DNA of 64,000 nt from Trypanosoma brucei (lineage: Eukaryota), in contig CM000208.1 in NCBI GenBank assembly GCA_000002445.1, forward strand, positions 3,168,001 to 3,232,000, in the 5' to 3' direction. Below the pieces are notes generated by a model. It saw only the letters and a list, made by a program, of their open reading frames with translations. It was not told where the DNA came from and ran no database searches. Below are positions 1-55,347 of this stretch, piece after piece. Position 1 is the first letter of the stretch. Each line of letters begins with the position of its first letter. A program made the translations under genes and the position numbers.

Positions 1-3000
1 TGAATAACTTTGGAATCATTGACACTGCAAGCGCCCTCATTTCATCGTTGTCACTGCCCAACGACTCGATTGCGGCTCGAAACACCGCAGAGAGGCTTTC
101 GACAGATTCCGTAGAAATACCTAAACCAAAGGCTTCCGCAGCAGCTAGGGCACCGAGCTGCGTAGCTGGTGCCCGCAGCGCCTTCTGCCACTGCTCCTGT
201 GGTATGTGCTCATACCCCTGACTGAGACCCGCAATGAACTTCTGATACGACTCGCTGGCACCATCCAGCCTCTGCACTAGAAAAGCTAGGAGTATTTTAC
301 CCGTGTCAGGAATGTACCGCCGCATCTGGTCATCCGCTTCCTCCACATCGAGAATAGTGTCCAAAAGTTCCAAGTTGTGCTGCACGTATTTGCTCTGTCG
401 GTTGAGGTACCTGAATATAATCTCGAGTGCCACATTGGGTTTAACCTTTACCACCTCTACGACACCCCGAACGGAGGTTTCGAGTTGGGCCTCTGTGGCA
501 CTTTCAATAAGACCAGGTCCAACGATCTTTGAAACCTTCGCGAAGAGTTCACGGGCGCATTGCTGTACCTGAGGATCTTTCTCCTGCATACCTGGCAAAA
601 CACACCCCACAATCTGTCCCCCCATACCAATAAGACGTCGGCCGTCGACGTATCCAACAACACAAGTGAGACAAGTAAGAGCACCAAGCTTACTTCTGCG
701 GTCGTCTTCCTTGTAGCGGTCGCACAGAGTGTCAATGAATGGTTCAATCATCTCGCTGAGGCGCGACGTGAATTCGATGGTCTTATTCGCCATCTCCGCA
801 CAATCTGGATTTTCCGATGGGGCGTATATGACCAAAAGGTCGATCAAACCGCTGAAAATTTTTTTGACAGCTCCACATGGACTTGCCACACATGCCTGCC
901 ACGCGTTGTTAGACTCTGTTCGCACGTTAAGATTGTGTTCGTTACGGCCACAGAAAATGGCTGACAAAAGTCGCACAAATCCCTCAGTACCAAGGGCCTC
1001 TTCAAGAGCTCCTAGAACGGATATTCCGCGCTTCTCAACACTGCGAGCGGATTCCACCTGTAGGATTTCCATGGCTCCCGTATCGTCGTCCGCTGCCGGC
1101 TCACCGTTGGTTTGTTCGTCTTCTTTTCCTCCCTTCTCACCATCCTCAGGACCGCGTTCCTTGACCGACTGAACACGCATTTTCTTTCGTATGTTCTGTA
1201 CAATGTGAAGGAGTAACTTTGATGTTAGCAACAGGGAGCTGTGGCGCAACGTTGAGACCTCACTCAACACACCGTTCATCAACGGTTCAAGAACGAGAGC
1301 CAGATTTCGCGTGCCGTATAGGTTTATGATGCTTGAGCCTGCTGTCAATGCTACGTCACGAACACGGTCTGAAAAGTGGGAAAGACCTTCCAGAACCCAC
1401 GGAAATGCCATTGGCAGAAGTTGCTGAAAGGTTGTTGGGTTGAGGGTGGAAGGGGCGTACACTACAATGTGCAAGAAACCTTCCCTCACTGGTGGTCGTT
1501 CGTCAAGCATGCCAGTTTCAATAACTGCAAATGAGTCGTAGAGGACGGCGTCACCACAGCTTTCTACAATTTCAACAAAAACTTGCGCAGCTCCCGCTTT
1601 CTCAACACTGCTACCGTGCGACTTGTGCAGGTTTGAAAAGCACCACGCCACGATTTCATCAACAAGGGTACCGCCGATTGCAGCTGCGAGGGCGGCAATC
1701 GCTTTTGCGCTGGTGGTGCGAGTCTCTGTTTTGGGATCCTCTGCAGCCTCCTCCAACAGCGAGACGAGTTGTTGACAGTATGGCTTGAGTGACTGGGTGT
1801 CGTTGACGAGGTTTACCATTGATGCAACAATCTGCGCCGCTTTCGGCCGTGTGTGAGGCATCTGGTTACTGAGTCCGCGGGAGATAATAGGAATGATGAG
1901 AGCAAGTGAGGCCGGATCTACAGCGTTCACAAAGCGTGTGTAAAGCAGAGTATCCAGCGCATTTTCGGTTTCAGTATTAGGTGAGCGAAGGGCGGCGAGA
2001 ATGACTTCCACGTGCTCTCGGATTTCAGTATTAGATACGACACCAGCAACCCGCCGCAAGGCATTCATGGCTGCTGCCGACACGTTGTGGTTGACGTCGA
2101 ACAAACAGGCATTAATATGCTTCGTAATCTCTGGAAGTGTTGCTGCTAACTGCTTAGGTGAACAAAACGCAACATAACCTATGAAGTTAAGTGGCGGTAT
2201 GCGCATCTTTGCCTGATCCGCCGCGAGACCCTTCACTAGTCGAGGTATTAGTTGCCTCAAACCCACTGCGGTAAGAGAGCTAACCATCAACCGCGAGGCA
2301 TCATCAGCGCATTCAGACACCTTTTGATCCTTGTCGGCAACGCCCTCCAGCAACCCACTAGACATCGCAAGCGCATAGGGTTCAAATTTCGGGCCCATAA
2401 CTTCGGACAATACTTCAAGCAAAACCATTACACCCGAACGCTCGGCCTGTTTTTCACGCATAGATGCCTGCATCGTTTCCAATATGTTGTAGCGGCGCAG
2501 CGAAGTGAGTCCAAGTCCATGCAAAACACCGGCAACACCGTATGCATGTGCCTTTTTCTTGATGTATGAACCAGAGTGAAGAACCTGCTTCAGACACTTT
2601 TGAACAAACTCATCCAACTGGGGCAGCGAACACGCATCCTTGTTCTTTGTTACTTCAACCATCGAGTCACACACCGTGCGGTGAACCATTGCGGAGGTCG
2701 AATTATTGAGCGTGCTCCCTTGTTGCACAATTATAGACTCCAACAAAGAGTTTTCCTTCAGACGGCAGCCAATAATCGTTAACCACACGGTCGAAATGGC
2801 GAGGTAGAGCTCTTTATGAACTGGAGTTATATCCTTTGGTGGCTTACTTAAACGTACCTGCAGAGTTTGTGACATCGCTTTAAGGACAACCAATGAGCAG
2901 TCGTGTAATACGACGCGCCCACAGGAAAGCACCACGAGCATAAAGGGTTCCGTATTTGGTGACTCAACGATAGTGCATAAATAAAGAAGAACGTCTTGGA

Positions 3001-6000
3001 AAGCATCGCCTTTCAATGACGAAGAAAGTACCTCAATAGCCACAACCGACCCTAACCCCCCAATTTTGCAAATGTCCTTGAGCCATGAACGTTGCTGAAC
3101 ATCCGTTGTATTGGGTAATAGAAAGAGCTCGCGCATTGATGCGCTTATGCGAGTTGCGTGGTGTTTTTGTTGCTGACCGTAGGCTTGCAAAAAATAAGTG
3201 AGATCATTCCAGTCTGTCGGGCAAAGAGTAAAAGGGTGGCTTGAGTTTTGGGTGATACCCCGCATTGACCTTACAACATCCGTAGAGGAGTCATGAAGAA
3301 ACACCGCAGCTAGGGTTAAGGCACGACGGCAAGTCGAAAAGTGTGAAAACCTATGATATGCTGCCGCGGTTACTTCTTTCACTGTGTCTACCTGGTTGAA
3401 GAACCCCAGCTCCAGAGCAACAAGATGAGAAGTGGGAATCATTGCCATCAAAAGGTTGATCCCCTGTTGCACACTCTTAAACAGCGAAGGAAACCTCTGC
3501 AATATCGTGTACAGCAACTGTAGCGTCTCCGTCGGCTGCGGTAAGTTTGCCTGACCAATGTTCTGAATCAACACACCCATGATTTGGTGTTGAGTTGCGA
3601 GGGGAATTGTTGTACGAACAGCTTGGCTTCCACGACCGGCTTTGAATGCTACATGTGAGAACGGGAGCAGCACCACGAACAGCGGGGGAGGGAGCATTTT
3701 TGTCATTGACTGACGCAAATACGTCGCCATAGTAGAAACACGAGAAACATCGTCTACAGAGAGTGAGGCTTTTCCCTCTAACTCAGCAACCGTTCTGGAC
3801 ATGCCCTCAGCTATGTGTGCAAACGCTGTTCGTGAAAGGAGTCCAGCAATAGCATCAACAAGCAACCGCTCCAGTACTTCTGGCACATCGTTTCCACTCA
3901 ATGTTTCCTGCAAATAGGGAAAAAGTACCGCCACGCACTCGAGGGGGAAGTCGCCTGACGTGCCTAGAGTACGAACAGTCACAAGGGCAGTTTTCCGCTG
4001 TAACAGAATATCCTCAATAACCCTGCTGTGCTTTTGGATCTCTTTGCGGAGCTCCTCCCGACCCTTCTCAAGTGCGGCGGCATCCCTTCTTTTCATATCC
4101 TCAAAGTCATCCTCGGCCATGCCTTTGGGTGGTTTGGAGGGATAAGTTTTTAACAACTGCCGCTCTCGCAACGTCTTTTCCTCGTATTGCAACATTGCCG
4201 CCGGGGACGCAGCGGCTATCGCCCGGTCTCGCATATCCAAGGCAAGCATATACTCCACTGACTCTTTGACTGCATCAAGGAGCTTGTTAAAAATTATTTG
4301 TGACGAAGCAAACCCGGTCCTAGTTCCTAGGAGTAACACCAAACCGCGACTCGCCGCCGTGCGTAAGTGGACAGATTCACTGAAGTACCCACAGAGCCCA
4401 TCAACAAGTGCATCGTGGTGCAAAACCAGGAGATGTCTGTGTTCTCCGCTGAAGAGCGAATCAAATAGCCGCCGCTGGACAACCTTGGAGCTTGTCCGCA
4501 TGCGTCCCAAGAGCGAGTCGTTGTCACAGAAATAGTAAGGGTCTTCACCCTGAATATGATCATGGCCACAACAAATCACAAGTTCCCGAAGCGCGGTAGG
4601 AACTGCCATCTTGGCAGTGTGTTTTAGTAACGCCGAGGCGACGGGTAGTAGCGCACCGCAGGCAGAATTCGACAATATGTTTGTTTTTTCTTTCTCCTCC
4701 AGCCCGAATACAACATGGGTAACACTGTCCCATAACGCAATAGCGGCACTTGCATCACTTGCAAGATCCTCTACAGAGTATGAGAGGCGTCGGCGCAGTA
4801 ACCCACTTCTGTGCGTAAGAAGAAGAGCCATTGGAGAAAAAACAAATACGTTTGCGAGCGCAACCGCCGTCTCCGCGAGGGCATCCAACTCGTCTCTACT
4901 CTCCCCAATCCGTGAAACCACATCAGCCCGGCACAAGACTGTGCAAAGTTTAGGGGAAACTTTTGCTTTACTTTCTACAAGAGACCGGAGCGCTATGAAG
5001 GCAGCTGGCCTATAGGCATCCACTTCCTCACAACTATCAAAGAGAAGTTCATTCAACCCCTCGATAACATCGCTCGGTGCCCGCTTGGGGGAAATATACA
5101 GTGCCATGGCCCATCTCACCTCCTCATTACCTTTGGCACTTTTGAGCGCGGCCCGCATTTCGTCCACGACACGGTTCTCCACACCACTGACCTGAAGCAG
5201 CCTCCAGGCTGCTTTAACAGCATCTGCAGAATGACTCACCAAATCTCTCTCTATAATCTTTACAATGTCTTCCTGACGGACCCTTAAGCGAGACGTTTCG
5301 GATGATGCACGCAAAACAGCACTGGTGAGGATCATGATCGATGCCTTTTCCGTTGAAGCGCAGCATTTTTGCATAACGGCAGCGGCGGCCCGAACAAACA
5401 AGGGTAACAATTCTTCCTCCATCCCTATTCCAAGAAAAATCAAACAGTAGAGTGTTTCCCATTCCTGTGCGACCTCGGGGGTAAGTATCTTCCCTTTGTT
5501 CACAAACGGCATGAGCAACTGGAAGAAGCTGTCTTCACCATGGGTCATGAAATAGCCTCTCTTGTCACTCACAGGAAGCGCCAGGATGACAGTCAGGTAA
5601 TCGCGGGTGCTGTTTAACGAACAATTAGTGAGTCCCATGTTGTAAAGACATAACTGTATCACCTCTTCCGCTTTATCGACCAGCAACGATCCGGGAACAG
5701 GCCTCTTTCCAAGAAGGTGAAGCATCAGCATCGGTGAGCTCTTCACTGTCTGCTGCACTGTTTCCTTCGAAATAGGGCATGACCACGAGGGAAACACGGA
5801 CAGCGTCAATGCTTGCGGTGGTGGAAGTTTCTCAATGAGGGCACCCCATTTCTCGCGCAAGTGGTTGCAACTCTTTTCCAGAATCCGCCGAAGCCGCCGC
5901 ATGGGACCACACAACAATACGTTTTCATTGCCAACGGGTATGTTGAGGGACAAACTTGAAAAAGAGTGTTTCCTACACGCTGCATGAAGCTTGGCGTAGT

Positions 6001-6532
6001 GCAGAACCACCGTAGCAAATATGTTCAAGAATAGTGTTTGCTCTTCTCCCGCTTGGGGTACGGCATCTCCCTTAAATAACGGTGGCGCCGCCGCTTTGAG
6101 AATTTCCTCCGCACAGCGCAGTGCAGTGCGGGAGTAACCCATAGGTAAGGTCGCTGTTTGGTGAAGAATGCTTGTCCACTCTTCACGCGTCAGCGGTGTG
6201 TCCCTCACGACGAGAGGGAGAAGTTGTCGTTGCAGCTGCCGCTGGTACCTGATAGGAAAGCTTGGTATTTTTGCTGCACCCAACACACATTGAATAACAG
6301 ACACTGCGGGCAGGCGCTGAAGCGGTCGCGCGGCCAATGCGTTAATGTTCTCAGGTACTTCGGTTGTACGTAGCCCCGCCTCCTGTTGTTCTTGAACCCC
6401 CTTCACATATTGGTTAAGCAGGGCCACCTCACGCTCAGTGAGGGGATGTGAGTAATTGAAAAGTACCTTGACAGCACGCGGGATGAGCGGAGACCCTCGC
6501 TGAAATGCTGCAACAACACCGCGAATATCCAT
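1..6532 (-). CDS. Very large HEAT/ARM-repeat-like protein, 5' partial (N-terminal >=2177 aa; C-terminus beyond window start)
   Basis: Minus-strand ATG at 6532 (plus-strand 'cat' at 6530-6532). The frame (first bases congruent to 1 mod 3) is the only minus frame with no complete ORF listed between 1 and 6530, as expected for an ORF that runs off the window edge. Hand translation at both ends shows no stops (MDIRGVVAAFQRGSPLIPRAVKVLFNY... through ...LGSDNDEMRALAVSMIPKVF). The plus strand here has only short ORFs. The translation is leucine/alanine-rich helical-repeat sequence typical of HEAT/ARM solenoids. Confidence 0.55.
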   Translation of the reverse strand, partial: MDIRGVVAAFQRGSPLIPRAVKVLFNYSHPLTEREVALLNQYVKGVQEQQEAGLRTTEVPENINALAARPLQRLPAVSVIQCVLGAAKIPSFPIRYQRQLQRQLLPLVVRDTPLTREEWTSILHQTATLPMGYSRTALRCAEEILKAAAPPLFKGDAVPQAGEEQTLFLNIFATVVLHYAKLHAACRKHSFSSLSLNIPVGNENVLLCGPMRRLRRILEKSCNHLREKWGALIEKLPPPQALTLSVFPSWSCPISKETVQQTVKSSPMLMLHLLGKRPVPGSLLVDKAEEVIQLCLYNMGLTNCSLNSTRDYLTVILALPVSDKRGYFMTHGEDSFFQLLMPFVNKGKILTPEVAQEWETLYCLIFLGIGMEEELLPLFVRAAAAVMQKCCASTEKASIMILTSAVLRASSETSRLRVRQEDIVKIIERDLVSHSADAVKAAWRLLQVSGVENRVVDEMRAALKSAKGNEEVRWAMALYISPKRAPSDVIEGLNELLFDSCEEVDAYRPAAFIALRSLVESKAKVSPKLCTVLCRADVVSRIGESRDELDALAETAVALANVFVFSPMALLLTHRSGLLRRRLSYSVEDLASDASAAIALWDSVTHVVFGLEEKEKTNILSNSACGALLPVASALLKHTAKMAVPTALRELVICCGHDHIQGEDPYYFCDNDSLLGRMRTSSKVVQRRLFDSLFSGEHRHLLVLHHDALVDGLCGYFSESVHLRTAASRGLVLLLGTRTGFASSQIIFNKLLDAVKESVEYMLALDMRDRAIAAASPAAMLQYEEKTLRERQLLKTYPSKPPKGMAEDDFEDMKRRDAAALEKGREELRKEIQKHSRVIEDILLQRKTALVTVRTLGTSGDFPLECVAVLFPYLQETLSGNDVPEVLERLLVDAIAGLLSRTAFAHIAEGMSRTVAELEGKASLSVDDVSRVSTMATYLRQSMTKMLPPPLFVVLLPFSHVAFKAGRGSQAVRTTIPLATQHQIMGVLIQNIGQANLPQPTETLQLLYTILQRFPSLFKSVQQGINLLMAMIPTSHLVALELGFFNQVDTVKEVTAAAYHRFSHFSTCRRALTLAAVFLHDSSTDVVRSMRGITQNSSHPFTLCPTDWNDLTYFLQAYGQQQKHHATRISASMRELFLLPNTTDVQQRSWLKDICKIGGLGSVVAIEVLSSSLKGDAFQDVLLYLCTIVESPNTEPFMLVVLSCGRVVLHDCSLVVLKAMSQTLQVRLSKPPKDITPVHKELYLAISTVWLTIIGCRLKENSLLESIIVQQGSTLNNSTSAMVHRTVCDSMVEVTKNKDACSLPQLDEFVQKCLKQVLHSGSYIKKKAHAYGVAGVLHGLGLTSLRRYNILETMQASMREKQAERSGVMVLLEVLSEVMGPKFEPYALAMSSGLLEGVADKDQKVSECADDASRLMVSSLTAVGLRQLIPRLVKGLAADQAKMRIPPLNFIGYVAFCSPKQLAATLPEITKHINACLFDVNHNVSAAAMNALRRVAGVVSNTEIREHVEVILAALRSPNTETENALDTLLYTRFVNAVDPASLALIIPIISRGLSNQMPHTRPKAAQIVASMVNLVNDTQSLKPYCQQLVSLLEEAAEDPKTETRTTSAKAIAALAAAIGGTLVDEIVAWCFSNLHKSHGSSVEKAGAAQVFVEIVESCGDAVLYDSFAVIETGMLDERPPVREGFLHIVVYAPSTLNPTTFQQLLPMAFPWVLEGLSHFSDRVRDVALTAGSSIINLYGTRNLALVLEPLMNGVLSEVSTLRHSSLLLTSKLLLHIVQNIRKKMRVQSVKERGPEDGEKGGKEDEQTNGEPAADDDTGAMEILQVESARSVEKRGISVLGALEEALGTEGFVRLLSAIFCGRNEHNLNVRTESNNAWQACVASPCGAVKKIFSGLIDLLVIYAPSENPDCAEMANKTIEFTSRLSEMIEPFIDTLCDRYKEDDRRSKLGALTCLTCVVGYVDGRRLIGMGGQIVGCVLPGMQEKDPQVQQCARELFAKVSKIVGPGLIESATEAQLETSVRGVVEVVKVKPNVALEIIFRYLNRQSKYVQHNLELLDTILDVEEADDQMRRYIPDTGKILLAFLVQRLDGASESYQKFIAGLSQGYEHIPQEQWQKALRAPATQLGALAAAEAFGLGISTESVESLSAVFRAAIESLGSDNDEMRALAVSMIPKLF

Positions 6533-7173
6533 GTTGCTTGCGCCTGTGCCCCTGTTAATGGTCGCACCTGGTTTTATACTTAACGATACTATTTTTTTTT
6601 TTCCTCCCCCGTTTATTTTTATTTGTTGCTTGTCTGCTACTTTCCCCTCTCTGATATGTAAGCACATTCCGGTAAACCGAAAAAAAGCGGGGGCAAACGA
6701 GCACTTGGTAGCGTGAACTCAAACAGTTTCATCGTCGCAAATCCTTCAAAGTAAGGTTAACAACAATGAAAGAGGGAATTTGCACAACACCTGCAGGAAA
6801 GAAAAGAAGCTCCATGTCGATGAGGTTTCTAGTGCCCGCTGCAGTTAGGCCGTCGAGAGGGATATCTCGGGAACCGAGCTTAAACATGCAGTGCGAGGTT
6901 TCAGACGCCGTCCCACAACTCCATCACCCTCTTCCTCATTCGAATTGAGAGAGGATGCACGGTATGATGTTGTGGGAAGAGAGTACACGCAGAATTCAAA
7001 AAGGTAGCGCAGAAGCCATCATTCGACCACTTGGGGAATGCAAAACATACGCCCTTCTTCCCTGGTCATCATTCCGCGCTTCCAAGTCGTTGTTTTAGTA
7101 TGTGGCGGAAAAAAAAACAATTTTTAAATCTAAGTTTTACGTCACACAGTAAGGCCTCCACCAGCGCGAGCGG

Positions 7174-34951: not shown

Positions 34952-35799
34952 ACGCAAGTACGAGCAAGCACAGCAAACACCTGGTGGCACAATAAGGAAT
35001 ATCACAGGGAAGAAACTAGAAGAAAGGAGGATAGGCGGTGTGTACACAAGGCACCGACATACTCGCCTCGCCTCTTGGAAAGCCACCACCCACAACGCAC
35101 CACCAAAAAGGCATGCCGTGGCTACGGGCCTCCTCAGAAATAGAAGGTAACACTGAAGAAACAGCAATGGGGGAAATTACTGCAGGTACGTGTCAGTCAA
35201 GTACAGCACTCTCGCTGAAAGCGTTGGTATCAATCAGCACTAAGTTGTCACTCAGTCGCGCACTACAACTTCTGTCCTCATACACAGCCATGCAGCAGAA
35301 CATCTCCGCCACATGTATCACCCCACAATGCATGCAAAGCACGGTGTGGGGCGGTTGTATGGGCGTCGATACAGCAACAGTGAATAAAGATGCAGTGTAA
35401 ACACACATAGCAGGAAGGAGTTAGGGACGGTAAATGCCGGTACAATCAACACCGCTGCTCAACATTTGTACACATTCAAGAGTCCTCATTGGATGTGTCG
35501 GTCCGCCTGTCGTTAGACAGTTTCTCATCGTCGCAGCGGTGTCGTGCCCATAACATGTCACATTTCGCATAGTCCAATGATCCAAGAGTCAAAAGAGAAG
35601 GGAAAAAAGAGTAACGAGGGGAAGAAGGGAGGAATCAGATAGATTGGTAAACGCAAAGTTGGTTTCTCGTTCATTATGGGTCGTCAGTGCGCACTACAAC
35701 TGCAGTCACATCACGCAGAGTAAACGCTATTGGAATATCTCCGCCTCCTGAAATCGCCCCACAACGATTTCTGCACATGTGAGGCGTTAGACAGAGACG
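34952..35799. repeat. Direct repeat copy 2 (848 bp), about 99 percent identical to 29044-29891
   Basis: Same evidence as copy 1. The two copies lie 5908 bp apart in direct orientation and flank the hypothetical gene 30396..32450 and the PAP2 gene. Confidence 0.9.
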
Positions 35800-36711
35800 G
35801 TAACCCGCAACAGCAGCTGCTGCAGGAAGAATGCATGTCCTCGGCCAGTACGGAATATTTATCACATTGGTTTCTATGGCGGCCCACTTGGCGTTAACCG
35901 ATTCTCCATCTAACACCATCGCCCTGGTGAGAAGGTTTTCTGTCTATTTTTCTTGGGTGATGAGTGATAAGCGTATTTTGGTACTGCCTTAGGTTTGTAC
36001 ATATGAAAAGAAATAACGAGGAAATAAAAACAAAGTTTTGATTATCCTGCAGCATCAGTCTACTTCATTGCAGGCAGAAAACGCTCATTTACGTATGAAC
36101 ATATTCATATCATCCCCATCTTCAAGTACGCTTCCCACGCACGTACACAAAGTGGTAAGTGGGAATGTACGAAAAGAGAAGAATGGAAGAATAATACTTT
36201 AAATACCCAGTCGCACTTGCGGACACCCTCTAACGATCCCAGCGGGAACGGTTGAGGTGGCACATACAAGATAATTAGCATAATCAAATATGGAAAAAAA
36301 AAAGAAAAGTAAAAGGGACAGAGCACGGTAGAAACAAAAAAGAAAAAGAAAGCAACTCCGTACACCTTCTGTTTTTTTTTCACTGCCAAAGCAGGACCGC
36401 TCTGTGCCACACACTGGCAAAACAAAAGCGGAAAATGTGGAGGGGAAAAGGACAGGATGAAAGGTAATAAAAAAAAGAAAATTGAAGAAACGTGTCGCAT
36501 GATATAAAAAAGGAGATATAACGTCCCTCTTTTATAATCGGTGGCATTGCTGCTTTGGTCTTTTTTATGGCTGAGCTGATTCATACCGGCCCGAGTTTGC
36601 TCTTTGTGACATTGTGAAGAGGAGTTGCCAGTTAAGGTCCACACAACACCGTCACCTACGGTAGCAAGTAGATACTGCAAACTCACACACACCTGGGGGT
36701 GGGGGATTTAA

Positions 36712-40478: not shown

Positions 40479-42047
40479 TCATTTGTGGGTTTGCAAGCGC
40501 AGAACGGCGTATCGTGTGTCAACAACATGGTTATCACTCAGCACTGGGCCCGACGGCACGTACATGAATCGCACTGATTCTTGTGTCAAACGCATGCACC
40601 GGCCTACGCCTGAACGCAAAAAGCTTAATTTTACATCTTTGATTCTTACGTGCGATGTGGTACTCTCAGGGAGAAGTTCTAACGGGCCCCGTGCTGTGAG
40701 CAGAAGAACCCCATGACAAAACGTAGTTGGTGAACCTTTCGGTGGTACTGACTGCAAAGTGTGCAACCGACCACTGAAGAGGGGTCCCCGCTCGCCTCCC
40801 TCCCACGGCGGATTTGTGGGCGGAGGTTTCGAAGCTTGCGATGTGGTCGACAACATCTCCTGTTGCTGATTTTTCAAGTTGAAGGACGGACTACTTCCCA
40901 TTTCTACATTTGTCTTCCTTTCGCCGTGAAGTTCAGTAGAATCGAGCTTCTCCAAACTCTGCACAACCTCCACGTCCGAGATCCGGTATCCCTCGCCCGT
41001 GAGGCTGCTGGTGCCAGACGTTCCTTGGGCTGCCATAGATGAATGAAGTCCATCACGGAACTTTTGTGGCAGCTCCGCGACACGAAACTCACCTACCTCA
41101 CTGGAAAACACCGTTGATATCCATTCTCCGCGTAGCTGCACTCCCATTGGGTACGCTGAACGCAGAAAGGAGGGAAGGTACGACTGACAAATGTCTTGTA
41201 TGATAGAAGATTGATCTGAGGGACTCATGAACAAAACGCCAATGGGAGCGCCCCAACGTGACTCACCATGCAGCAAAACGTTCATTGCTTTAACCCCTGT
41301 AGAGGTCTGCGGAAGCCGCAGTTCGCCTGTCTTCAATACTCCCTCCAGGGGAAAAACGATAGCACCTTCCGGAGGAAACTGTTCAAGTTGCAAGGCGGCA
41401 ACATCACTGTAGTTGCGGTGTTGCGCCGAGCCATTCAAGTCAACTGCCAGAACGAAATCACTGCCAACGAGAATCCAAACAGGTTGTAACTGTTCTTTGC
41501 TCAGTTGTGCCCCACCCCTCCCTTCCGCGTGACGTATCACCCACTCCCTCATATCGAACTTGCGAGCATCTGCCTCAATCATACTATTCAAAAGATCAAT
41601 GGCTTTATGAAACTGGGCTTTGTCAGCGGGTCTCCGCCGACAAATAAGCTTTTCAGAGCCCTTGTCGTCCACTCCGCAGCTATCCGGAGGAGCTCTTGGA
41701 CAAATTGCATTTAACCTATGATCAAGATGAACTATGTTACGTTTTTGCATTCTGCCGAGAAATTTCGGCTGCTGTCCACCATCTTCCGGACTGGGTGGCC
41801 CACACATTTTTGGTTTTATATGTCCTGGTAACAACGGAATGGAGTGGCGCGGCAGTGGTGGGGATTCGCAGACCTTTTCCCCATTATTTGCCTTTCCGGG
41901 CATCAGGGTTCCTTTGGAGCGGAGAGGTCGAAGCGAGCCAACTAATGTCTTCGATGAATTGGCAAGCGAATTAGGCGTCGCCTTGCTGGAACCATCTTGC
42001 CCTTGCGGCGGTGCAGAGTTTGTGGGTAGTGGGATTTCTACACCCAT
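40479..42047 (-). CDS. Hypothetical protein (522 aa)
   Basis: A complete ORF on the coding strand with non-repetitive composition. No motif recognised. Confidence 0.45.
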   Translation of the reverse strand: MGVEIPLPTNSAPPQGQDGSSKATPNSLANSSKTLVGSLRPLRSKGTLMPGKANNGEKVCESPPLPRHSIPLLPGHIKPKMCGPPSPEDGGQQPKFLGRMQKRNIVHLDHRLNAICPRAPPDSCGVDDKGSEKLICRRRPADKAQFHKAIDLLNSMIEADARKFDMREWVIRHAEGRGGAQLSKEQLQPVWILVGSDFVLAVDLNGSAQHRNYSDVAALQLEQFPPEGAIVFPLEGVLKTGELRLPQTSTGVKAMNVLLHGESRWGAPIGVLFMSPSDQSSIIQDICQSYLPSFLRSAYPMGVQLRGEWISTVFSSEVGEFRVAELPQKFRDGLHSSMAAQGTSGTSSLTGEGYRISDVEVVQSLEKLDSTELHGERKTNVEMGSSPSFNLKNQQQEMLSTTSQASKPPPTNPPWEGGERGPLFSGRLHTLQSVPPKGSPTTFCHGVLLLTARGPLELLPESTTSHVRIKDVKLSFLRSGVGRCMRLTQESVRFMYVPSGPVLSDNHVVDTRYAVLRLQTHK

Positions 42048-45073: not shown

Positions 45074-46939
45074 TCACTGCTCGTCTTCACTGTCCTTCAG
45101 TGCATCCTCAATCTGTTGTATTTTGGTATTATGTGCCCATTTATCATTAACCAGAAATGTGCGGGTCAGTGCGGTATGAACAGCATACCTCACATTGCTC
45201 ACCTTATCCTTCGCTAAACTCAGTAACCCATCGAGAAAGTACTTGTCCACCAGGCTCTCCGCGTCCAGTTTCGCTACCTCCTCCGCAATATATGGAAACA
45301 TCAGCCGATCACGAAAACTGTAGCGACCGGCGATCTGCAGTAACGCGTCCGCGTAGTCCCCGCAACTGTTCTCCCGCCCAGCATCAGCCAAATGCTTGAG
45401 AAGGACGGCCGCTGAGCGATACGTTGACCGCCGTACCTCCATCACGCTATCATCAAGAAGACGCAGTACTAGAGCGATAACCGAACCAAGCGCACTGCTG
45501 CTGGTGGGATCGAGCAGTACACCAACATCGCCAATCCTCTGCCCGACCACGTTCCGAAGCCGCCAGTTCTCACTGTCGAGGGGTACGTGACAAAGAAGTG
45601 GAACGAGTCGCTCACGCGTTGCCACGCCCATGACGGCAAGGAAGACGTCAGCATTTAGTACGACCCCCAACCGCACCTCGTCAAGATCTCTAATAAGCAT
45701 CTCAAAAGCAGTGACAAGGTGCGACTCGGTGAGATCTCGACCTAAAATCTTAGCAAATTCATGCAGTGAATGGGCCAGGGACTTGCGGACTTTCCATTTA
45801 ACATCCTTGAGCAGGGTTGCGTACGCATCTCCAGCCTCGTCCCAACGACCTGGTCCTGCGATCTCTACAACAGCAGGGAACGAGTAGGCACATGGTTCAC
45901 TGTAATCTGTGTCGCCATTCTCCGACTCAAAAGCCATATCCGTGTATGTCTTGAGCAGGGCTGGAGTTAGATCTGAAGGTCGAAGTGTGTGCAAAAATCT
46001 CCCCAGGTACTCGTAAGCTCCATTCCGCACCCAACGCGAGTTGTCATCCAGCAAAAGTCGAAAAGCGGGCACGAGTTTATCAGCTCTGGCGGTGGGACTC
46101 ACACCGAGAGAGATCTCTTCGATGTTCTCCGCGCAAGCTTTACGAACCCCCCAGATTTCGTCCAGGCACAGATTAAGGTATATCGGTAGCACAGTCTTGT
46201 CCGCTATTTCCTCCTGCACTACCTCGCATACTTTTCCCAAGTTCGCGCCGACAGTTTTTCGCACGGTAAAGTTACTATCGTTGGCCAACAGTTCCAACTC
46301 CGGAAGCACGTCGTTCACACAGCACTCTTTACCGAAAAGCCCCGCCATTTCGTTGAATAGAAGTGCTGCTACAACGCGATAATCCTCCGCCCTCTCGTCG
46401 CGCGCTAACATTATGGCAACATGAAGCAGGTGCTCCTGAATATGTTCGGGCTTAACGAGTTCACCAAGTGCTTTTAACGCTACCAAAGCTGCTGCCCCCA
46501 CCTCCACATTCTTGTCTACTAACATCTCAAATCCAATCGGAAGGAACTTTCCTAATAGACAGTTGTAACCAGCGTCACCACCCTCCTGAACAAAATATGC
46601 AGCCACTTCCGGGAGTTGCTGAACCAACATGCGCCGCACAAGGGGTTCACAGTCATTTGTGAATCTGCTCAGAAGTGGAATGATGTGGCTGGTACTCTGC
46701 TCAAAACCAGCATACCTTACAGTATCCGCGAGCTCACGCAGCAAAAATTGACGCTGCAATGAAAAGCCAGAAGAGTGATAGCTCAAGAGCCGGTTGAGTG
46801 GGTCTAGGGTGTCGTCAATTGCATACTCGTTGTAGATAAATTCCTCCTCACCGTCTCGTTGATTCTCGTCGAGCATAGCGGCACAGCTTTCCCCTCCTAA
46901 CCCCTTGCTGTAGTCTCGGTTTGCCCCACACGGCTTCAC
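45074..46939 (-). CDS. HEAT-repeat protein, PP2A scaffold (A/PR65) subunit-like
   Basis: There are many approximately 39-aa repeats of the PR65 type: LPELELLANDSNFTVRKTVGANLGKV, VLPIYLNLCLDEIWGVRKACAENIEEI, LVPAFRLLLDDNSRWVRNGAYEYLGRF, LVPLLCHVPLDSENWRLRNVVGQRIGDV, KDVKWKVRKSLAHSLHEF. The overall length of 621 aa is close to PR65. Confidence 0.55.
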   Translation of the reverse strand: MKPCGANRDYSKGLGGESCAAMLDENQRDGEEEFIYNEYAIDDTLDPLNRLLSYHSSGFSLQRQFLLRELADTVRYAGFEQSTSHIIPLLSRFTNDCEPLVRRMLVQQLPEVAAYFVQEGGDAGYNCLLGKFLPIGFEMLVDKNVEVGAAALVALKALGELVKPEHIQEHLLHVAIMLARDERAEDYRVVAALLFNEMAGLFGKECCVNDVLPELELLANDSNFTVRKTVGANLGKVCEVVQEEIADKTVLPIYLNLCLDEIWGVRKACAENIEEISLGVSPTARADKLVPAFRLLLDDNSRWVRNGAYEYLGRFLHTLRPSDLTPALLKTYTDMAFESENGDTDYSEPCAYSFPAVVEIAGPGRWDEAGDAYATLLKDVKWKVRKSLAHSLHEFAKILGRDLTESHLVTAFEMLIRDLDEVRLGVVLNADVFLAVMGVATRERLVPLLCHVPLDSENWRLRNVVGQRIGDVGVLLDPTSSSALGSVIALVLRLLDDSVMEVRRSTYRSAAVLLKHLADAGRENSCGDYADALLQIAGRYSFRDRLMFPYIAEEVAKLDAESLVDKYFLDGLLSLAKDKVSNVRYAVHTALTRTFLVNDKWAHNTKIQQIEDALKDSEDEQ

Positions 46940-48714: not shown

Positions 48715-51399
48715 CTACATGTTGTTAAGAATTTTCCACATTGGATAAAGTAAAAGAGTCATTAGTCCCTCTTTTCGTGCCTTCATCGTGCACAAGAGCA
48801 AAACTAACACAAGCCACTCCTCGTGCAGGCGCAGTGCCTCCTCCACCACGTCGTCCTCTGGCCTCCCGCAGTGTTCCGTGGAATCACCCGGCAAACTCAA
48901 GGTGAAGGGCGCGCGGTGGCGATTTAGAGACTCTATCAGCTCTTGCTTTTGATCCTCAGCACGTCGCTCCGCGGTCATCCGCCTCCTGGTATCACCCGAC
49001 AAAACTTGAGAAGATGAAAAGTCGCCTGTTGAAGTACTTCCCTCCACAGCTGGTTGCATCCACAGGCGCAACTGAGCACCAGATAGTGTTTCAGGGTGCA
49101 TTGTACAAGTCTGTGCAATCAACTTCGCCGGCCGGCGAAGTACCTTGTTAATATCATTATAAGGATAATTGTCAGACATGAAGCCGATGATATTCTGCAC
49201 GTACAGCAGTAACGACTGGAATGCATAAGCCGGGGAATACTCAGGACTTGTGAGCCCTACGCAATCTGAGTGGTTTAGACGGCGAACGACGCCCGCTAAG
49301 GCGTCAAATTCATCATTTATAAGCGACGCGGCGCCGGGGTAGTACTGTTCCATTAGTGTACTGCCGTGCTCTTGCCAGTTGAAATTACCGCTTCTCAACG
49401 TGCAACCGCCAACGTTAGAGCCCTTGATTCGCTTCTCACTAACTATATCGTCAACTCCTGTGTATCGTGTAAAACTGATGTCAGCGTTGTGGTGGTGCTC
49501 ATCCCCAACGACCACACAAGGGGAAAGCAAGGCAGCCAGCGCCGGTGGTAGCGCGGTAAATGAACATAAATCATTTGGCACGAAGAGTCCCATAACCAAA
49601 CTGCATAACGACAGCGTTTCGGCCACAATGGTTGACACTTGCATGAGGCCATGAATGCTCCATCCTGCGCTCATGGCTGTACGAATGTCAACATCAGATA
49701 TTTGCCATGGGACGTGGGTTGCGATTGCTATAAAGCGTTGAAGGGCCTGCAACTTTGGTGGTGGTCCGTCCCGGAGCCAAGACCTTGCTGTTCCACAGAC
49801 TCCACCCTCCTTTCCACCCACTCTCATAAGCAAGGCACCGAATCGGCACACAAGATACTCACATTTCTGACGGCAGGCCGTCATGAATGCCACCATCAAA
49901 CGTTCAGAATTCAACAGCGGGCCATTCCCGAAGAAAACATAGATAAACGTGCTGTGGTGAGCCTTAAGAAATTCAGGACATGCCGAGAGGACGTAGTAAT
50001 ATTGTGGCAATTCGCCCATATCTGTGAATATACGATACAGTAGGTCGCGACGTCCGCTGCACAGTGACCGCAGGGAGGCGATACTGCAATGAGAAAGTGC
50101 CTCCCATAACGCTTGTTGTGTCGCGTCCTTTTCCTTTGAAGCCTCTTTGTTCGCTAGCTCCCCATCGATTGCACCGCAGCTACTTGTCCTACCTTTCGAT
50201 AAGGTCCCGAGGCGCCGGCGGGCCAGGGACGGTGTTGAGGAGGAGGATGGTAGGGAGCAACGAGGCATCGTACCCGCGGTAGAGACTGACTTCTGCAATG
50301 CGTCCAACTCCCTAGAAAGCCTCCCGGAGAGCAGCTGCCCCAGAGTCGGTAGAGCCGCAGTTGGAGAAGGAGCTACGTACCATTTGACATCGGTAGCTTC
50401 GTGGAGACGTGGAGAAAGTACCTCATCCCAATTTAACCTTACCAGTTTACCCTCCACAACGTAGAGAAAGTTGGCGTTCGATTCCATCCCCCAGAGCTCA
50501 CTCACCTGTGTTTCCCTAATTGTTCTTGCGTCGACCTGTGACAGACATTTCAATATTCTACCGCGTAAACCTGAGGGGCATATGGCCTTCCCCAAAACAT
50601 CTGCGATAATTAGTTGCAGACAATTGGCTAACGACTGACATGGACAAGAGAATGCAATCCCAATGAGACAACAGAACGCCATCTCCGCCTCGTGGAGACT
50701 TCCAGCATAGGACCTTTCACCACGTACAGCGTCTCCGGTGTGGTAATCACCACTCATAAGACTTGTGCCGTCTTCACTACTATAAGCCAGAGGAAAGGAG
50801 CGAGATACACTCTCCACGGTAGGTTTACGAATTTTACACTGCTGCGCAAGCCGTCCGTCATCGTCACACGCAGACACGTCGATGCCGATAGAAGAAGAAT
50901 GGTGGCCAACCCCGCTATGGCTACCCCTCGACACTGCTTGGCAACTCTTTAACCCGTTCTCCGCGTCCCGCAGCAACATACATGCTCTTTGCAGGTAGCG
51001 AGAAGTGCACTTAATCAACCCAGCCGGCACGCAGCCAACGTCACACTCAGCTACTAATGCACTCAATTGTTTTGCCATATCGTCAGCGAAGCCAAGAGTT
51101 GCAGGCTGAGCTCCAGATGGGCCCAGCGCATCGCACTGCACCGCGTCTTCAGAAGGTACACGAAAGAGCACCCTCAACGAATGGTTTTGGTGGGCACTTT
51201 GTTCTGATTGTGCCGCATGCTGATGGGCTTTACGCTCCAGCGCGTAGGTGTCACCAATATGTCCCAAAACAGAAGTTATGAGCTCTGCAAAAGACGGACA
51301 TGCCAAGTGGTTGTCTGCTTCCGAGCTATCCTGTCCCTCTGGAAGCATCGTGTTGGGCTGCATGTTGCTACGCAGTAGAGCAAGGTGTAAGCAGGTCAA
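48715..51399 (-). CDS. Large protein (894 aa) with Sestrin/PA26-like core region
   Basis: Residues about 455-610 (nt about 49570-50037) read YYYVLSACPEFLKAHHSTFIYVFFGNGPLLNSERLMVAFMTACRQKCEYLVCRFGALLMRVGG...KLQALQRFIAIATHVPWQISDVDIRTAMSAGWSIHGLMQVSTIVAETLSLCSLVMG. As I recall it, this parallels the Sestrin core (..GDGPLP..RHYIAIMAAARHQCSYLV...GGD...KLR.LNE.NKLLAHRPWLITKEHI..LL..GE.SWSL.EL..A.VLL.H.HSL.SF). The rest has no recognised domain. Confidence 0.5.
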   Translation of the reverse strand: MTCLHLALLRSNMQPNTMLPEGQDSSEADNHLACPSFAELITSVLGHIGDTYALERKAHQHAAQSEQSAHQNHSLRVLFRVPSEDAVQCDALGPSGAQPATLGFADDMAKQLSALVAECDVGCVPAGLIKCTSRYLQRACMLLRDAENGLKSCQAVSRGSHSGVGHHSSSIGIDVSACDDDGRLAQQCKIRKPTVESVSRSFPLAYSSEDGTSLMSGDYHTGDAVRGERSYAGSLHEAEMAFCCLIGIAFSCPCQSLANCLQLIIADVLGKAICPSGLRGRILKCLSQVDARTIRETQVSELWGMESNANFLYVVEGKLVRLNWDEVLSPRLHEATDVKWYVAPSPTAALPTLGQLLSGRLSRELDALQKSVSTAGTMPRCSLPSSSSTPSLARRRLGTLSKGRTSSCGAIDGELANKEASKEKDATQQALWEALSHCSIASLRSLCSGRRDLLYRIFTDMGELPQYYYVLSACPEFLKAHHSTFIYVFFGNGPLLNSERLMVAFMTACRQKCEYLVCRFGALLMRVGGKEGGVCGTARSWLRDGPPPKLQALQRFIAIATHVPWQISDVDIRTAMSAGWSIHGLMQVSTIVAETLSLCSLVMGLFVPNDLCSFTALPPALAALLSPCVVVGDEHHHNADISFTRYTGVDDIVSEKRIKGSNVGGCTLRSGNFNWQEHGSTLMEQYYPGAASLINDEFDALAGVVRRLNHSDCVGLTSPEYSPAYAFQSLLLYVQNIIGFMSDNYPYNDINKVLRRPAKLIAQTCTMHPETLSGAQLRLWMQPAVEGSTSTGDFSSSQVLSGDTRRRMTAERRAEDQKQELIESLNRHRAPFTLSLPGDSTEHCGRPEDDVVEEALRLHEEWLVLVLLLCTMKARKEGLMTLLLYPMWKILNNM

Positions 51400-52316: not shown

Positions 52317-53144
52317 TTACGCAGCCTCCTTTAGACACTTAGGGTCCCAACCAACGGCAAACCAGGGATGGGAAATGATACCCTCAAGGGTGATACGGTT
52401 TTGGGGGTCCACAGTCAACATGCGCTTGACTAAATCCCTTACAGCCTCAGACACCTGCCGCAGCATAGCGTACTCACCGCGCTTGACTTTCTCAAGAAGG
52501 GATTTCTGGTTACGATCCTCAAAGGGGAGTTTTCCAGCGAGCATGACGTAAAGAATGACACCACAACTCCAAATATCAGCGGCGAATGCGTTGTGGTCGC
52601 TTCCACTAAGTGCCTCGGGAGCAATATAGTTCGGGGTCCCCATAGCCCTGCTGGAAGGGAGGTCACTGTCGCCACTGCCATTGCTGCAAAAGCCAAAATC
52701 ACTAATTTTCAGCACTCCGACAGCATCAAGCAGAAGATTTTCGGGCTTCAAGTCACGGTGAGCGAACCCCTTGCCGTGGCAGTGGTGAACGCCGGCGATG
52801 AGCTGTTGGAAGTAGCGTCGTGCAGTCGGTTCGTCAAAGCGTTTCGCAGCAACGATTTTGTCAAACAGCTCACCGCCCGATACGAACTCTAACACCAGGC
52901 AGTAGTGAGTTGGCGTTTCCTTGAAATCGTGAAATGCAATTATATTTTCATGCTTAAATACGCGCATGGCCTCTACTTCCCGCATCAATTGGCCTTCCAT
53001 TTCTTCCTTTCGCAGTTTAGCCTTGTCTATGATCTTAACTGCCCACCTCCGTCGTTGCTCATCCGTTGCCAAGCGGACGGTGGAGAAGGTACCAGATCCA
53101 AGTTTTTGGGAAACCGTGTACGGTGGAAGAACAAAATTTTCCAT
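52317..53144 (-). CDS. Ser/Thr protein kinase, catalytic domain only (CAMK-like), tandem copy 1
   Basis: GSGTFSTV (glycine loop), VAVK-type AVKIIDK, HRDLKPENLLLD, DFG, GTPNYIAPE and DIWSCGVILY are all present. The 275-aa product ends ...HPWF.... Confidence 0.85.
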   Translation of the reverse strand: MENFVLPPYTVSQKLGSGTFSTVRLATDEQRRRWAVKIIDKAKLRKEEMEGQLMREVEAMRVFKHENIIAFHDFKETPTHYCLVLEFVSGGELFDKIVAAKRFDEPTARRYFQQLIAGVHHCHGKGFAHRDLKPENLLLDAVGVLKISDFGFCSNGSGDSDLPSSRAMGTPNYIAPEALSGSDHNAFAADIWSCGVILYVMLAGKLPFEDRNQKSLLEKVKRGEYAMLRQVSEAVRDLVKRMLTVDPQNRITLEGIISHPWFAVGWDPKCLKEAA

Positions 53145-54486: not shown

Positions 54487-55347
54487 TCACGCCGACTCGT
54501 TCAGACACTTAGGGTCCCAATCAACGACAAACCAGGGATGGGAAATGATAGCCTCAAGGGTGATACGCTTCTTAGGATTTACGACAAGCATGCGCGCGAT
54601 TAAGTCCTTTGCTGCGTCTGACACGTGCCGGACCATGCTGTACTCGCCACGCTCGATCCGTGCAAGAAGATGTCTCATGCTCCGATCCTCAAAAGGAAGT
54701 CGTCCAGCGAGCATGACGTAAAGAATGACACCGCAACTCCAAATGTCAGCACAGAGACCGTTGTAGCCGCGCTCCATGAGGACCTCAGGTGCCACATAGT
54801 TGGGAGTGCCACACACTGTTTTTAGCAGGATGTCCTGCTGCCGGTTTCCGAGACCAAAATCACTAATTTTCAGCACTCCGACAGCATCAAGCAGAAGATT
54901 TTCGGGCTTCAAGTCACGGTGAGCGAACCCCTTGCCGTGGCAGTGGTGAACGCCAGCGATGAGCTGTTGGAAGTAGCGTCGTGCAGTCGGTTCGTCAAAG
55001 CGTTTCGCAGCAACGATTTTGTCAAACAGCTCCCCGCCCGATACGAACTCTAACACAAGATAGTAATGGTTCGCTGATTCGAGCACGTCGTGAAGATCAA
55101 TAACATTCCTATGTTTAATGGATCGCATTATAGCAACTTCACGAAGCATTTGATCCTCCATCTTTTCCTTCCGAAGTCGAGTTTTGTCTATGATCTTAAC
55201 GGCAAATTTCTTACCACCTTCATCTGTTGCCAACCTTACCGTTGAGAAGTTTCCGAACCCGAGTTTTTCCCCCAAACAATACGGTCCCAGCCGCACAGGA
55301 GGTGTCATGGCAGTGAAGCCCTCTGTTACACCGGTGTTCACCCTCAC
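54487..55347 (-). CDS. Ser/Thr protein kinase, catalytic domain only (CAMK-like), tandem copy 2 (paralog of 52317..53144)
   Basis: Same kinase motifs as copy 1. Residues YYLVLEFVSGGELFDKIVAAKRFDEPTARRYFQQLIAGVHHCHGKGFAHRDLKPENLLLDAVGVLKISDFG are identical in the two proteins. An alternative start is at Met14 (MTPPVRLG; 'cat' at 55306-55308). Confidence 0.85.
   Translation of the reverse strand: MRVNTGVTEGFTAMTPPVRLGPYCLGEKLGFGNFSTVRLATDEGGKKFAVKIIDKTRLRKEKMEDQMLREVAIMRSIKHRNVIDLHDVLESANHYYLVLEFVSGGELFDKIVAAKRFDEPTARRYFQQLIAGVHHCHGKGFAHRDLKPENLLLDAVGVLKISDFGLGNRQQDILLKTVCGTPNYVAPEVLMERGYNGLCADIWSCGVILYVMLAGRLPFEDRSMRHLLARIERGEYSMVRHVSDAAKDLIARMLVVNPKKRITLEAIISHPWFVVDWDPKCLNESA

What the first reader, a model, noticed from the sequence alone, without database searches (positions are those of the whole stretch)
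48715..51399. Sestrin/PA26-like core embedded in an 894-aa protein
A roughly 150-aa segment aligns by eye, motif for motif, with the conserved Sestrin core (GxGPL...R.....M.A.R..C.YLV....G....GG ; KL..L......A.H.PW.I......L...G..SW.........V.L..H). Sestrins are stress-responsive regulators of TORC1 signalling best known from animals. A homolog in this lineage, with a long unrelated N-terminal region, would be notable, especially with a giant HEAT-repeat (possibly TOR-pathway) protein in the same window. The match is from memory of the family consensus.
Basis: partly seen in the sequence, partly recalled or inferred. Interest (0 to 1): 0.6.

Follow-up and report, generated by a model that had tools for sequence, protein, structure and literature searches.

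The report
Trypanosoma brucei Sestrin gene, already known

Summary
The ORF is real (minus strand, stop at 48715). The true CDS starts at the ATG at 51363 and encodes 882 aa, not 894. The window is Trypanosoma brucei chromosome 10. The protein passes every Sestrin test I could run. Pfam PA26 scores 115 bits against a 29.4-bit cutoff (E=5e-33). Human Sestrin2 matches over both domains (E=6e-18). An AlphaFold model (pTM 0.83) superposes on GATOR2-bound Sestrin2 (TM 0.81). The redox Cys-x-Tyr, HxPW and WS motifs are conserved. NCBI already names the 99%-identical T. b. equiperdum protein 'PA26 p53-induced protein (sestrin)'. Haidurov & Budanov 2024 discuss T. brucei Sestrin, and Leishmania papers list the orthologue. 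So this is already known. The 'giant HEAT-repeat, possibly TOR' neighbour is a GCN1 homologue about 42 kb away, not a TOR-pathway protein. Some details add modest interest. The ~400-aa N-terminal extension is a conserved, predicted-folded domain with no detectable relatives. A 66-aa insertion precedes the last helix. The leucine-pocket lid and Arg390 are absent. The GATOR2-binding DDYDY hinge reads DNYPY. The protein is therefore unlikely to be a leucine sensor, and GATOR2 binding is unproven.

The parts
48715..51363 (-). Complete CDS of T. brucei Sestrin (882 aa plus stop).
   Evidence: ORF list. First ATG at 51363 and same length as P0001. Coordinates checked by translation.
50269..51306 (-). 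Lineage-specific N-terminal domain (aa 20-365). Predicted alpha/beta fold with a disordered loop at aa 150-209. Conserved islands include 'AFSCP' (aa 237-241, window 50641-50655) and 'W..xP...ALPT' (aa 328-340).
50164..50268 (-). Ser/Arg-rich disordered linker (aa 366-400).
   Evidence: pLDDT below 50; poorly conserved.
49528..50049 (-). SESN-A, the N-terminal AhpD-like domain (aa 439-612).
   Evidence: Pfam PA26 best stretch. Aligns to human Sestrin2 residues 74-216. pLDDT above 90. Foldseek match to Sestrin2.
49852..49884 (-). Redox motif MTACRQKCEYL (aa 494-504). C501 corresponds to human C125 and Y503 to Y127. An extra C497 lies one helical turn upstream.
   Evidence: Alignment anchored on the human fragments; translation.
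49705..49722 (-). ATHVPW (aa 548-553), the counterpart of the central LAHRPW motif.
   Evidence: H550, P552 and W553 are invariant or nearly so.
49645..49662 (-). WSIHGL (aa 568-573), the counterpart of the GATOR2-contact motif WSLAEL. W189 and S190 are kept; E193 is Gly.
49402..49527 (-). Short inter-domain linker (aa 613-654) replacing the ~118-aa animal SESN-B linker. Human L261 has no counterpart.
   Evidence: Alignment; low to mixed pLDDT.
49054..49401 (-). SESN-C part 1 (aa 655-770), including the position of the leucine-pocket lid (aa 690-712, window 49228-49296), which is not conserved here, and W768 (human W444).
   Evidence: Aligns to human 335-440. Residue mapping. hhalign.
49159..49173 (-). 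DNYPY hinge (aa 731-735), the counterpart of the GATOR2-binding DDYDY. D406 is kept; D407 is Asn.
48856..49053 (-). Clade-specific 66-aa insertion (aa 771-836): a low-confidence loop plus one long helix, with 'EQKQELIESLNRHRAPFTL' conserved in Trypanosoma.
   Evidence: Alignment; model.
48718..48855 (-). Terminal SESN-C helix (aa 837-882). LHEEWL corresponds to HSEKVH, with E849 matching human E451.
   Evidence: hhalign against short-form protist Sestrins, 92% probability, E=5.7e-7. pLDDT above 90.

Best explanation
The gene encodes the single Sestrin orthologue of Trypanosoma brucei. Shown: it has the two tandem AhpD-like all-helical domains of Sestrins. SESN-A keeps the redox Cys-x-Tyr. SESN-C keeps a DDYDY-type hinge in the form DNYPY. 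Inferred from animal Sestrins and from the Rag/TOR components reported in Leishmania: it acts as a stress-responsive brake on TORC1-type signalling by docking onto a WDR24-SEH1 (GATOR2/SEACAT-like) module through the SESN-C hinge and the WS helix of SESN-A, and/or as a Cys501-dependent reductase of hydrophobic hydroperoxides. It is probably not gated by leucine in the animal way, because the pocket lid, Arg390 and the L261 linker are missing. The clade-specific N-terminal domain and the 66-aa insertion probably supply lineage-specific regulation or partners. I put family identity at about 0.97 and the GATOR2-docking mechanism at only about 0.4.
For: Pfam PA26 at 115 bits against a cutoff of 29.4. 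Sestrin2 PDB sequence hits over both domains, E~5e-18. A profile built from this protein's core recovers 698 proteins at E<=1e-8, the top ones named sestrin-1/-2/-3 at E~1e-90 to 1e-99. The exhaustive representative search gives 278 relatives. The AF2 model has pTM 0.83 with the core at pLDDT above 90. Foldseek matches GATOR2-bound Sestrin2 9lwf_X at E=1e-12, TM 0.81. Conserved residues: C501/Y503, H550/P552/W553, W568/S569, R657 (human R338), W663, D731, Y733, Y735, W768, E849. NCBI names the orthologue a sestrin. T. brucei Sestrin is reported to carry DDYDY-like and WSLAEL-like motifs (PMC11429811). Leishmania has RagA, RagC, Raptor, TOR and a Sestrin hit (PMC7901767).
Against: For the mechanism, not the identity. 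Only 1 of 5 acidic human GATOR2-contact residues is acidic here: D104N, E345Q, D364N and D407N, with D406 kept. Y349 is Ser, Q340 is Gly and R404 is Met (contacts taken from PMC12507694). D406 and D407 together are reported as essential in human. The Leishmania GATOR2 'homologues' are short WD40-level BLAST matches, and the GATOR1 subunits NPRL2/3 were not found. H132 of the proton relay is Phe. I found no functional study of the trypanosome protein.
Confidence: 0.85

Rival explanations
1. Redox-only Sestrin. The protein works mainly as an AhpD-like Cys501 hydroperoxide reductase or redox sensor and has no GATOR2/TORC1 role in trypanosomes.
For: C501 and Y503 are conserved, with a second Cys (C497) one helical turn away. 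There is detectable sequence and fold similarity to AhpD-like peroxidases, E~2e-5 and Foldseek ~1e-3. The acidic GATOR2 patch is eroded. Leishmania Sestrin co-immunoprecipitated with DDX3 alongside antioxidant enzymes (PMC5133982). GATOR1/2 is only weakly detectable in Leishmania.
Against: The SESN-C hinge (D731, Y733, Y735), W568/S569 and R657 serve no known redox role, yet they are conserved. The literature says the eukaryote-specific feature of Sestrins is the GATOR2-binding hinge. H132 of the proton relay is Phe.
Confidence: 0.2
2. Repurposed scaffold. In kinetoplastids the Sestrin core is a docking module. The conserved orphan N-terminal domain and the C-terminal insertion carry a lineage-specific function (a different ligand or partner) that is independent of GATOR2 and of leucine.
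Against: There is no positive evidence for any alternative partner or ligand. Extensions on conserved cores are common in trypanosomatid proteins (general knowledge). The core motifs remain under Sestrin-like constraint.
Confidence: 0.2
3. The similarity is a chance or low-complexity artefact, or the ORF is not a real gene.
For: None beyond the mis-called TTG start.
Against: E-values of 1e-33 (Pfam) and 1e-18 (PDB). Orthologues at 44-56% identity over the full length in T. congolense, T. vivax, T. rangeli and T. conorhini. A confident Sestrin-fold model.
Confidence: 0.01

Closest known systems
Human Sestrin2 (PDB 5DJ4, 5CUF, 9LWF, 9LVJ) and animal Sestrin1-3 / Drosophila Sestrin
   Same: Two AhpD-like helical domains in the same order. 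Catalytic Cys-x-Tyr in SESN-A. Central HxPW motif. WS helix. SESN-C hinge with D-x-Y-x-Y. R338, W344, W444 and E451 equivalents present. Predicted fold superposes at TM 0.65-0.81 normalised to target.
   Different: About 17-18% identity over the structural alignment. An extra ~400-aa N-terminal domain. The SESN-B linker is cut from ~118 to ~42 aa, with no L261. A 66-aa insertion lies between W444 and the HSEKVH helix. Leucine lid residues T374/Y375/T377/T386 and R390 are replaced. H132 is Phe, E193 is Gly, D407 is Asn, and most acidic WDR24 contacts are neutralised.
Trypanosomatid long-form Sestrins (T. b. equiperdum P0001, T. congolense P0002, T. vivax P0003, T. rangeli P0004, T. conorhini P0153; Leishmania LdCL_180011700 / LinJ.18.0660 from the literature)
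   Same: Same architecture: orphan N-terminal domain with the AFSCP motif, Sestrin core, C-terminal insertion, and invariant Glu in the terminal helix. Identity is 99% to T. b. equiperdum and 44-56% to other Trypanosoma.
   Different: The D407 equivalent is lost only in the salivarian species (N in T. brucei and T. congolense, G in T. vivax) and in a few unnamed sequences, but kept in T. rangeli and most other long forms. The second Cys (C497) is likewise seen only in the salivarian species.
Bacterial AhpD / carboxymuconolactone-decarboxylase-like peroxidases (PDB 2OYO, 2PRR, 6K40, 3C1L)
   Same: Each Sestrin domain has this all-helical fold. SESN-A still gives direct sequence hits at E~2e-5 and Foldseek hits at ~1e-3.
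   Different: These are single-domain proteins with a CxxC active site. Here the domains are fused in tandem, the site reads C497-x3-C501, and the second domain has the hinge in place of an active-site helix (for the family description).

Membership tests
Sestrin (Pfam PA26, PF04636) | Scores above the curated Pfam gathering threshold | tested here: met
   115.1 bits against 29.4, E=5.4e-33, two stretches. 13 of 13 full-length relatives also hit PA26.
Sestrin (Pfam PA26, PF04636) | Two tandem AhpD-like all-helical domains that superpose on solved Sestrin2 | tested here: met
   On a predicted model only: AF2 pTM 0.83 with core pLDDT above 90. Foldseek 9lwf_X E=1e-12, TM 0.81; 5dj4 TM ~0.7.
Sestrin (Pfam PA26, PF04636) | SESN-A redox motif: catalytic Cys125 and Tyr127 | tested here: met
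   C501 and Y503 lie in MTACRQKCEYL. H132 is Phe, as in ~98% of non-metazoan Sestrins according to PMC11429811.
Sestrin (Pfam PA26, PF04636) | Central LAHRPW motif | tested here: met
   ATHVPW at aa 548-553. H, P and W are invariant or nearly so in the alignments.
Sestrin (Pfam PA26, PF04636) | WSLAEL GATOR2-contact motif in SESN-A (W189, S190, E193) | tested here: inconclusive
   WSIHGL: W568 and S569 are kept, L191 is Ile, I195 is Met, but E193 is Gly.
Sestrin (Pfam PA26, PF04636) | Electronegative DDYDY hinge in SESN-C (D406 and D407 essential for GATOR2 binding in human) | tested here: inconclusive
   DNYPY: D731, Y733 and Y735 are kept, D407 is Asn and D409 is Pro. Essentiality comes from PMC12507694.
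Sestrin (Pfam PA26, PF04636) | Physical binding to GATOR2 (WDR24-SEH1L) and inhibition of TORC1 | not testable with these tools
   This needs co-purification or genetics. Only 1 of 5 acidic contact residues is retained. The kinetoplastid GATOR2 evidence in the literature is weak BLAST matches.
Leucine-sensing Sestrins (animal Sestrin1/2 type) | Leucine pocket: lid T374/Y375/T377/T386, R390 for the carboxylate, E451 for the amine, W444, L261 | tested here: not met
   T374 is Val, Y375 is Arg, T377 is Leu, T386 is not Thr, R390 is not Arg, and L261 has no counterpart. Only the W444 (W768) and E451 (E849) equivalents remain.
AhpD / CMD peroxidase family proper | Single-domain protein with a CxxC active site | tested here: not met
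   The protein is a tandem two-domain fusion and its site reads C497-x3-C501. It is related only at superfamily level, E~2e-5.

The most novel reading that the evidence does not exclude
Kinetoplastid Sestrins may form a distinct long-form subclass. In this reading a conserved orphan N-terminal domain and an insertion next to the ligand-pocket helix replace the animal leucine lid and linker. The protein would then sense a different signal (another metabolite or a redox cue) or signal without canonical GATOR2 docking. This would apply most strongly in salivarian trypanosomes, which have lost the essential D407 and most of the acidic WDR24-contact surface.
Probability: 0.25. Interest if true: 0.5.

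Novelty: already known. Interest (0 to 1): 0.15.

Why it matters
As a discovery it matters little. The gene is already annotated as a sestrin, and its presence in T. brucei and Leishmania has been published. Its main use is as a clean positive control for reading motifs by eye. The residual value lies in the residue-level picture: an intact redox site, a half-kept ligand pocket, a degraded acidic GATOR2 surface and an orphan N-terminal domain. That picture gives concrete, testable hypotheses about how nutrient and stress signalling reaches TOR in trypanosomes, where the upstream pathway is poorly defined and much of the animal machinery (Ragulator, KICSTOR, CASTOR, NPRL2/3) was not detected in Leishmania.

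Tried and rejected
1. Full-length word-indexed homologue searches returned only 3 Trypanosoma proteins, because low-complexity words filled the candidate list. A trimmed core alignment fixed this.
3. The C-terminal insertion showed a weak similarity to eIF2alpha (9h74_A, E=0.0017). I rejected it: the score sums two copies of the same segment in that chain, and the best single-stretch E-value is 2.3.
4. A functional link to neighbouring genes was considered and rejected. The candidates were GCN1, the PP2A-A scaffold and the two AMPK/SNF1-like kinases. All genes lie in one minus-strand polycistronic unit, where adjacency is not evidence of co-function in trypanosomes.
5. Cluster look-up to name the long-form relatives named only T. 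rangeli. The rest are unnamed Logan/ENA assemblies.
6. Searches for a dedicated functional paper on trypanosome Sestrin, or for SEACAT in kinetoplastids, found none.
Full report
**What is there.** The window has long intron-less ORFs, all on the minus strand. It carries two copies of the trypanosomatid snoRNA cluster TB10Cs4. Its proteins are 99% identical to Trypanosoma brucei equiperdum. It is therefore a piece of T. brucei chromosome 10 inside one polycistronic transcription unit. The reported ORF at 48715..51399 (minus strand) exists. Its 894-aa length is an artefact of accepting TTG as a start. The first ATG is at 51363, which gives 882 aa. That is the length of the database orthologue P0001, which differs at only 13 positions.

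**Is the Sestrin resemblance real?** Yes, by a wide margin.
- Pfam PA26 (PF04636) scores 115.1 bits against a gathering cutoff of 29.4, E=5.4e-33.
- phmmer against all PDB sequences puts human Sestrin2 first, E=4e-18 to 9e-18. There are two aligned stretches: aa 450-595 to human 74-216, and aa 654-765 to human 335-440. Bacterial AhpD-like peroxidases follow at E~2e-5.
- An exhaustive HMMER scan of 1.84 billion representatives finds 278 relatives at E<=1e-3.
- A profile built from the trimmed core of this protein and its relatives recovers 698 proteins at E<=1e-8. The top ones are named sestrin-1, -2 and -3 of vertebrates and insects, at E~1e-90 to 1e-99.
- An AlphaFold2 model built on a 66-sequence alignment has pTM 0.83, with the core at pLDDT above 90.
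- Foldseek matches that model to solved Sestrin2. The best match is the GATOR2-bound form 9lwf_X (E=1e-12, TM 0.81 normalised to the target). Single AhpD-like domains follow.

The similarity thus covers the whole two-domain Sestrin core, not just about 150 aa.

**Is it new?** No.
- NCBI already calls the T. b. equiperdum protein 'PA26 p53-induced protein (sestrin)'.
- Haidurov & Budanov 2024 (PMC11429811) include T. brucei in their non-metazoan Sestrin set. They state that it carries motifs resembling DDYDY and WSLAEL.
- Lypaczewski et al. 2021 (PMC7901767) list a Leishmania donovani Sestrin (LdCL_180011700) together with RagA, RagC, Raptor and TOR. Their GATOR2 matches are weak, and they report no NPRL2/3, Ragulator, KICSTOR or CASTOR.
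- Padmanabhan et al. [quoted passage not shown]
- I found no dedicated functional study of the trypanosome protein.

**Anatomy at residue level.** I aligned this protein with 40 relatives and anchored the numbering on the human Sestrin2 fragments printed. The anchoring was checked, the results are, and the window coordinates were verified.

Conserved:
- Catalytic C125 and Y127 correspond to C501 and Y503 in MTACRQKCEYL.
- LAHRPW corresponds to ATHVPW (aa 548-553).
- W189 and S190 correspond to W568 and S569.
- R338 corresponds to R657, and W344 to W663.
- D406, Y408 and Y410 correspond to D731, Y733 and Y735.
- hhalign places W444 on W768.
- hhalign places E451 of HSEKVH on E849 in LHEEWL. This Glu is invariant across all 18 long-form sequences and is followed by a 2-residue insertion (92% probability).

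Not conserved:
- H132 is Phe, which is usual outside animals. E193 is Gly. D407 is Asn and D409 is Pro, so the hinge reads DNYPY.
- The leucine lid is replaced: T374 is Val, Y375 is Arg, T377 is Leu, and T386 is not Thr.
- R390, which binds the leucine carboxylate, is not Arg.
- The SESN-B linker is about 42 aa instead of about 118, and L261 has no counterpart.

I also mapped the GATOR2-interface residues defined by cryo-EM (PMC12507694). Of the acidic set D104, E345, D364, D406 and D407, only D406 is acidic here. The others are N480, Q664, N683 and N732. Y349 is Ser, Q340 is Gly and R404 is Met. The hydrophobic contacts are kept conservatively (L191 to Ile, I195 to Met, L351 to Leu, I352 to Met). 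Among the named sequences, loss of D407 is limited to the salivarian trypanosomes: N in T. brucei and T. congolense, G in T. vivax. T. rangeli and most other long forms keep Asp.

**Lineage-specific parts.** The N-terminal ~400 aa are not mere low complexity.
- The relatives share conserved islands: AFSCP at aa 237-241 and W..xP...ALPT at aa 328-340.
- Both the full-length and the stand-alone models predict the same alpha/beta topology for aa 25-365. Disordered loops lie at aa 150-209 and 366-400. The stand-alone model is only moderate (pLDDT 61, pTM 0.60).

A second clade-specific feature is a 66-aa insertion (aa 771-836). It lies between the W444 equivalent and the terminal helix and contains one predicted long helix. 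The stretch EQKQELIESLNRHRAPFTL within it is conserved in Trypanosoma. A weak resemblance of this insertion to eIF2alpha is not significant once the duplicated target segment is discounted.

**How it most likely works.** Identity as the T. brucei Sestrin orthologue is shown (probability about 0.97). The function is inferred.
- The conserved SESN-C hinge, the WS helix and the R338 equivalent have no known redox role. They are the hallmark of GATOR2 docking, so a role as a stress-responsive brake on TORC1-type signalling through a WDR24-SEH1-like module is the leading model. I give it only about 0.4. The acidic contact surface is largely neutralised in T. brucei, and kinetoplastid GATOR components are poorly established.
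- The intact Cys501-x-Tyr503 site makes a hydroperoxide-reductase or redox-sensor role plausible, either alongside the first role or instead of it.
- Animal-type leucine gating is unlikely, because the lid, R390 and L261 are missing. The retained E849 and W768 leave open a structural role or a different ligand.
- The orphan N-terminal domain and the insertion presumably add lineage-specific regulation.

**Context claim.** The 'giant HEAT-repeat (possibly TOR-pathway) protein' is an ORF that runs off the left edge of the window (6718..2, minus strand, at least 2239 aa). It is a GCN1 homologue. Pfam gives HEAT_EF3_N 1e-33, HEAT_EF3_GNC1 5.5e-16 and HEAT_GCN1 1.8e-12, and PDB gives GCN1 7nrc at 5.5e-43. 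GCN1 belongs to the stalled-ribosome/GCN2-eIF2alpha branch, not to TOR. The HEAT protein immediately downstream of the Sestrin gene (45074-46939) is a PP2A A-subunit-type scaffold. In trypanosomes, neighbours in a polycistronic unit are not expected to be functionally linked (established knowledge), so the context adds nothing.

**Verdict.** The gene is already annotated and already in the literature, so the finding is 'already known' with low interest. The modest residual interest lies in the long-form architecture and in the degraded leucine and GATOR2 determinants. These are testable.

Noticed in passing
window 2-6718 (-), runs off the left end: Giant truncated ORF of at least 2239 aa that is a GCN1 homologue (EF3/GCN1 HEAT repeats; PDB GCN1 E=5.5e-43). 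It belongs to the GCN2/eIF2alpha branch, not the TOR pathway.
   Followed up: yes
window 52317-53144 (-) and 54487-55347 (-): Two tandem short (275 and 286 aa) kinase-domain-only genes of the AMPK/SNF1/CIPK type, immediately upstream of the Sestrin gene. They are 69% identical overall, with a central block of ~70 aa that is fully identical, which suggests gene conversion. Animal Sestrins also act through AMPK, but adjacency is not evidence of a link in trypanosomes.
   Followed up: partly
window 29165-29892 (-) and 35073-35800 (-): Two copies of the H/ACA snoRNA cluster TB10Cs4 (H4, H3, H2 in the same order and spacing), ~5.9 kb apart. They flank the 684-aa (30396-32450) and PAP2-family (33522-34514) ORFs, which suggests a segmental duplication.
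   Followed up: no
window 10217-11116 (-) and 11511-12170 (-): Tandem RNA polymerase subunit RPB5 paralogues. One is canonical (219 aa, with N and C domains). The other is longer (299 aa) and has a divergent N-terminal part.
   Followed up: no
window 49852-49884 (-), aa 494-504: A second cysteine, C497, lies one helical turn before the catalytic C501 (C-x3-C). It is present in T. brucei, T. congolense and T. vivax but is Ser in T. rangeli and in the other long-form relatives shown. It could form a resolving disulphide.
   Followed up: partly
window 48856-49053 (-), aa 771-836: The Sestrin C-terminal insertion shows a weak similarity to a segment of eIF2alpha (PDB 9h74_A; whole-sequence E=0.0017, best single stretch E=2.3). 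I judged it to be chance.
   Followed up: yes
window 45074-46939 (-): The gene directly downstream of Sestrin encodes a PP2A A-subunit-type HEAT scaffold (PPP2R1A-like_HEAT, 621-aa ORF from a GTG, so the true start is probably further in).
   Followed up: partly
window 13435-17493 (-): A 1352-aa ORF with a FAZ1 conserved domain and a C-terminal PDZ domain, probably a flagellum-attachment-zone-related protein.
   Followed up: no
window 18853-22206, 26544-28685, 30396-32450, 40479-42047 (all -): Four sizeable ORFs (1117, 713, 684 and 522 aa) have no Pfam family at E<=0.001 and only sub-threshold hits at E<=1.
   Followed up: partly
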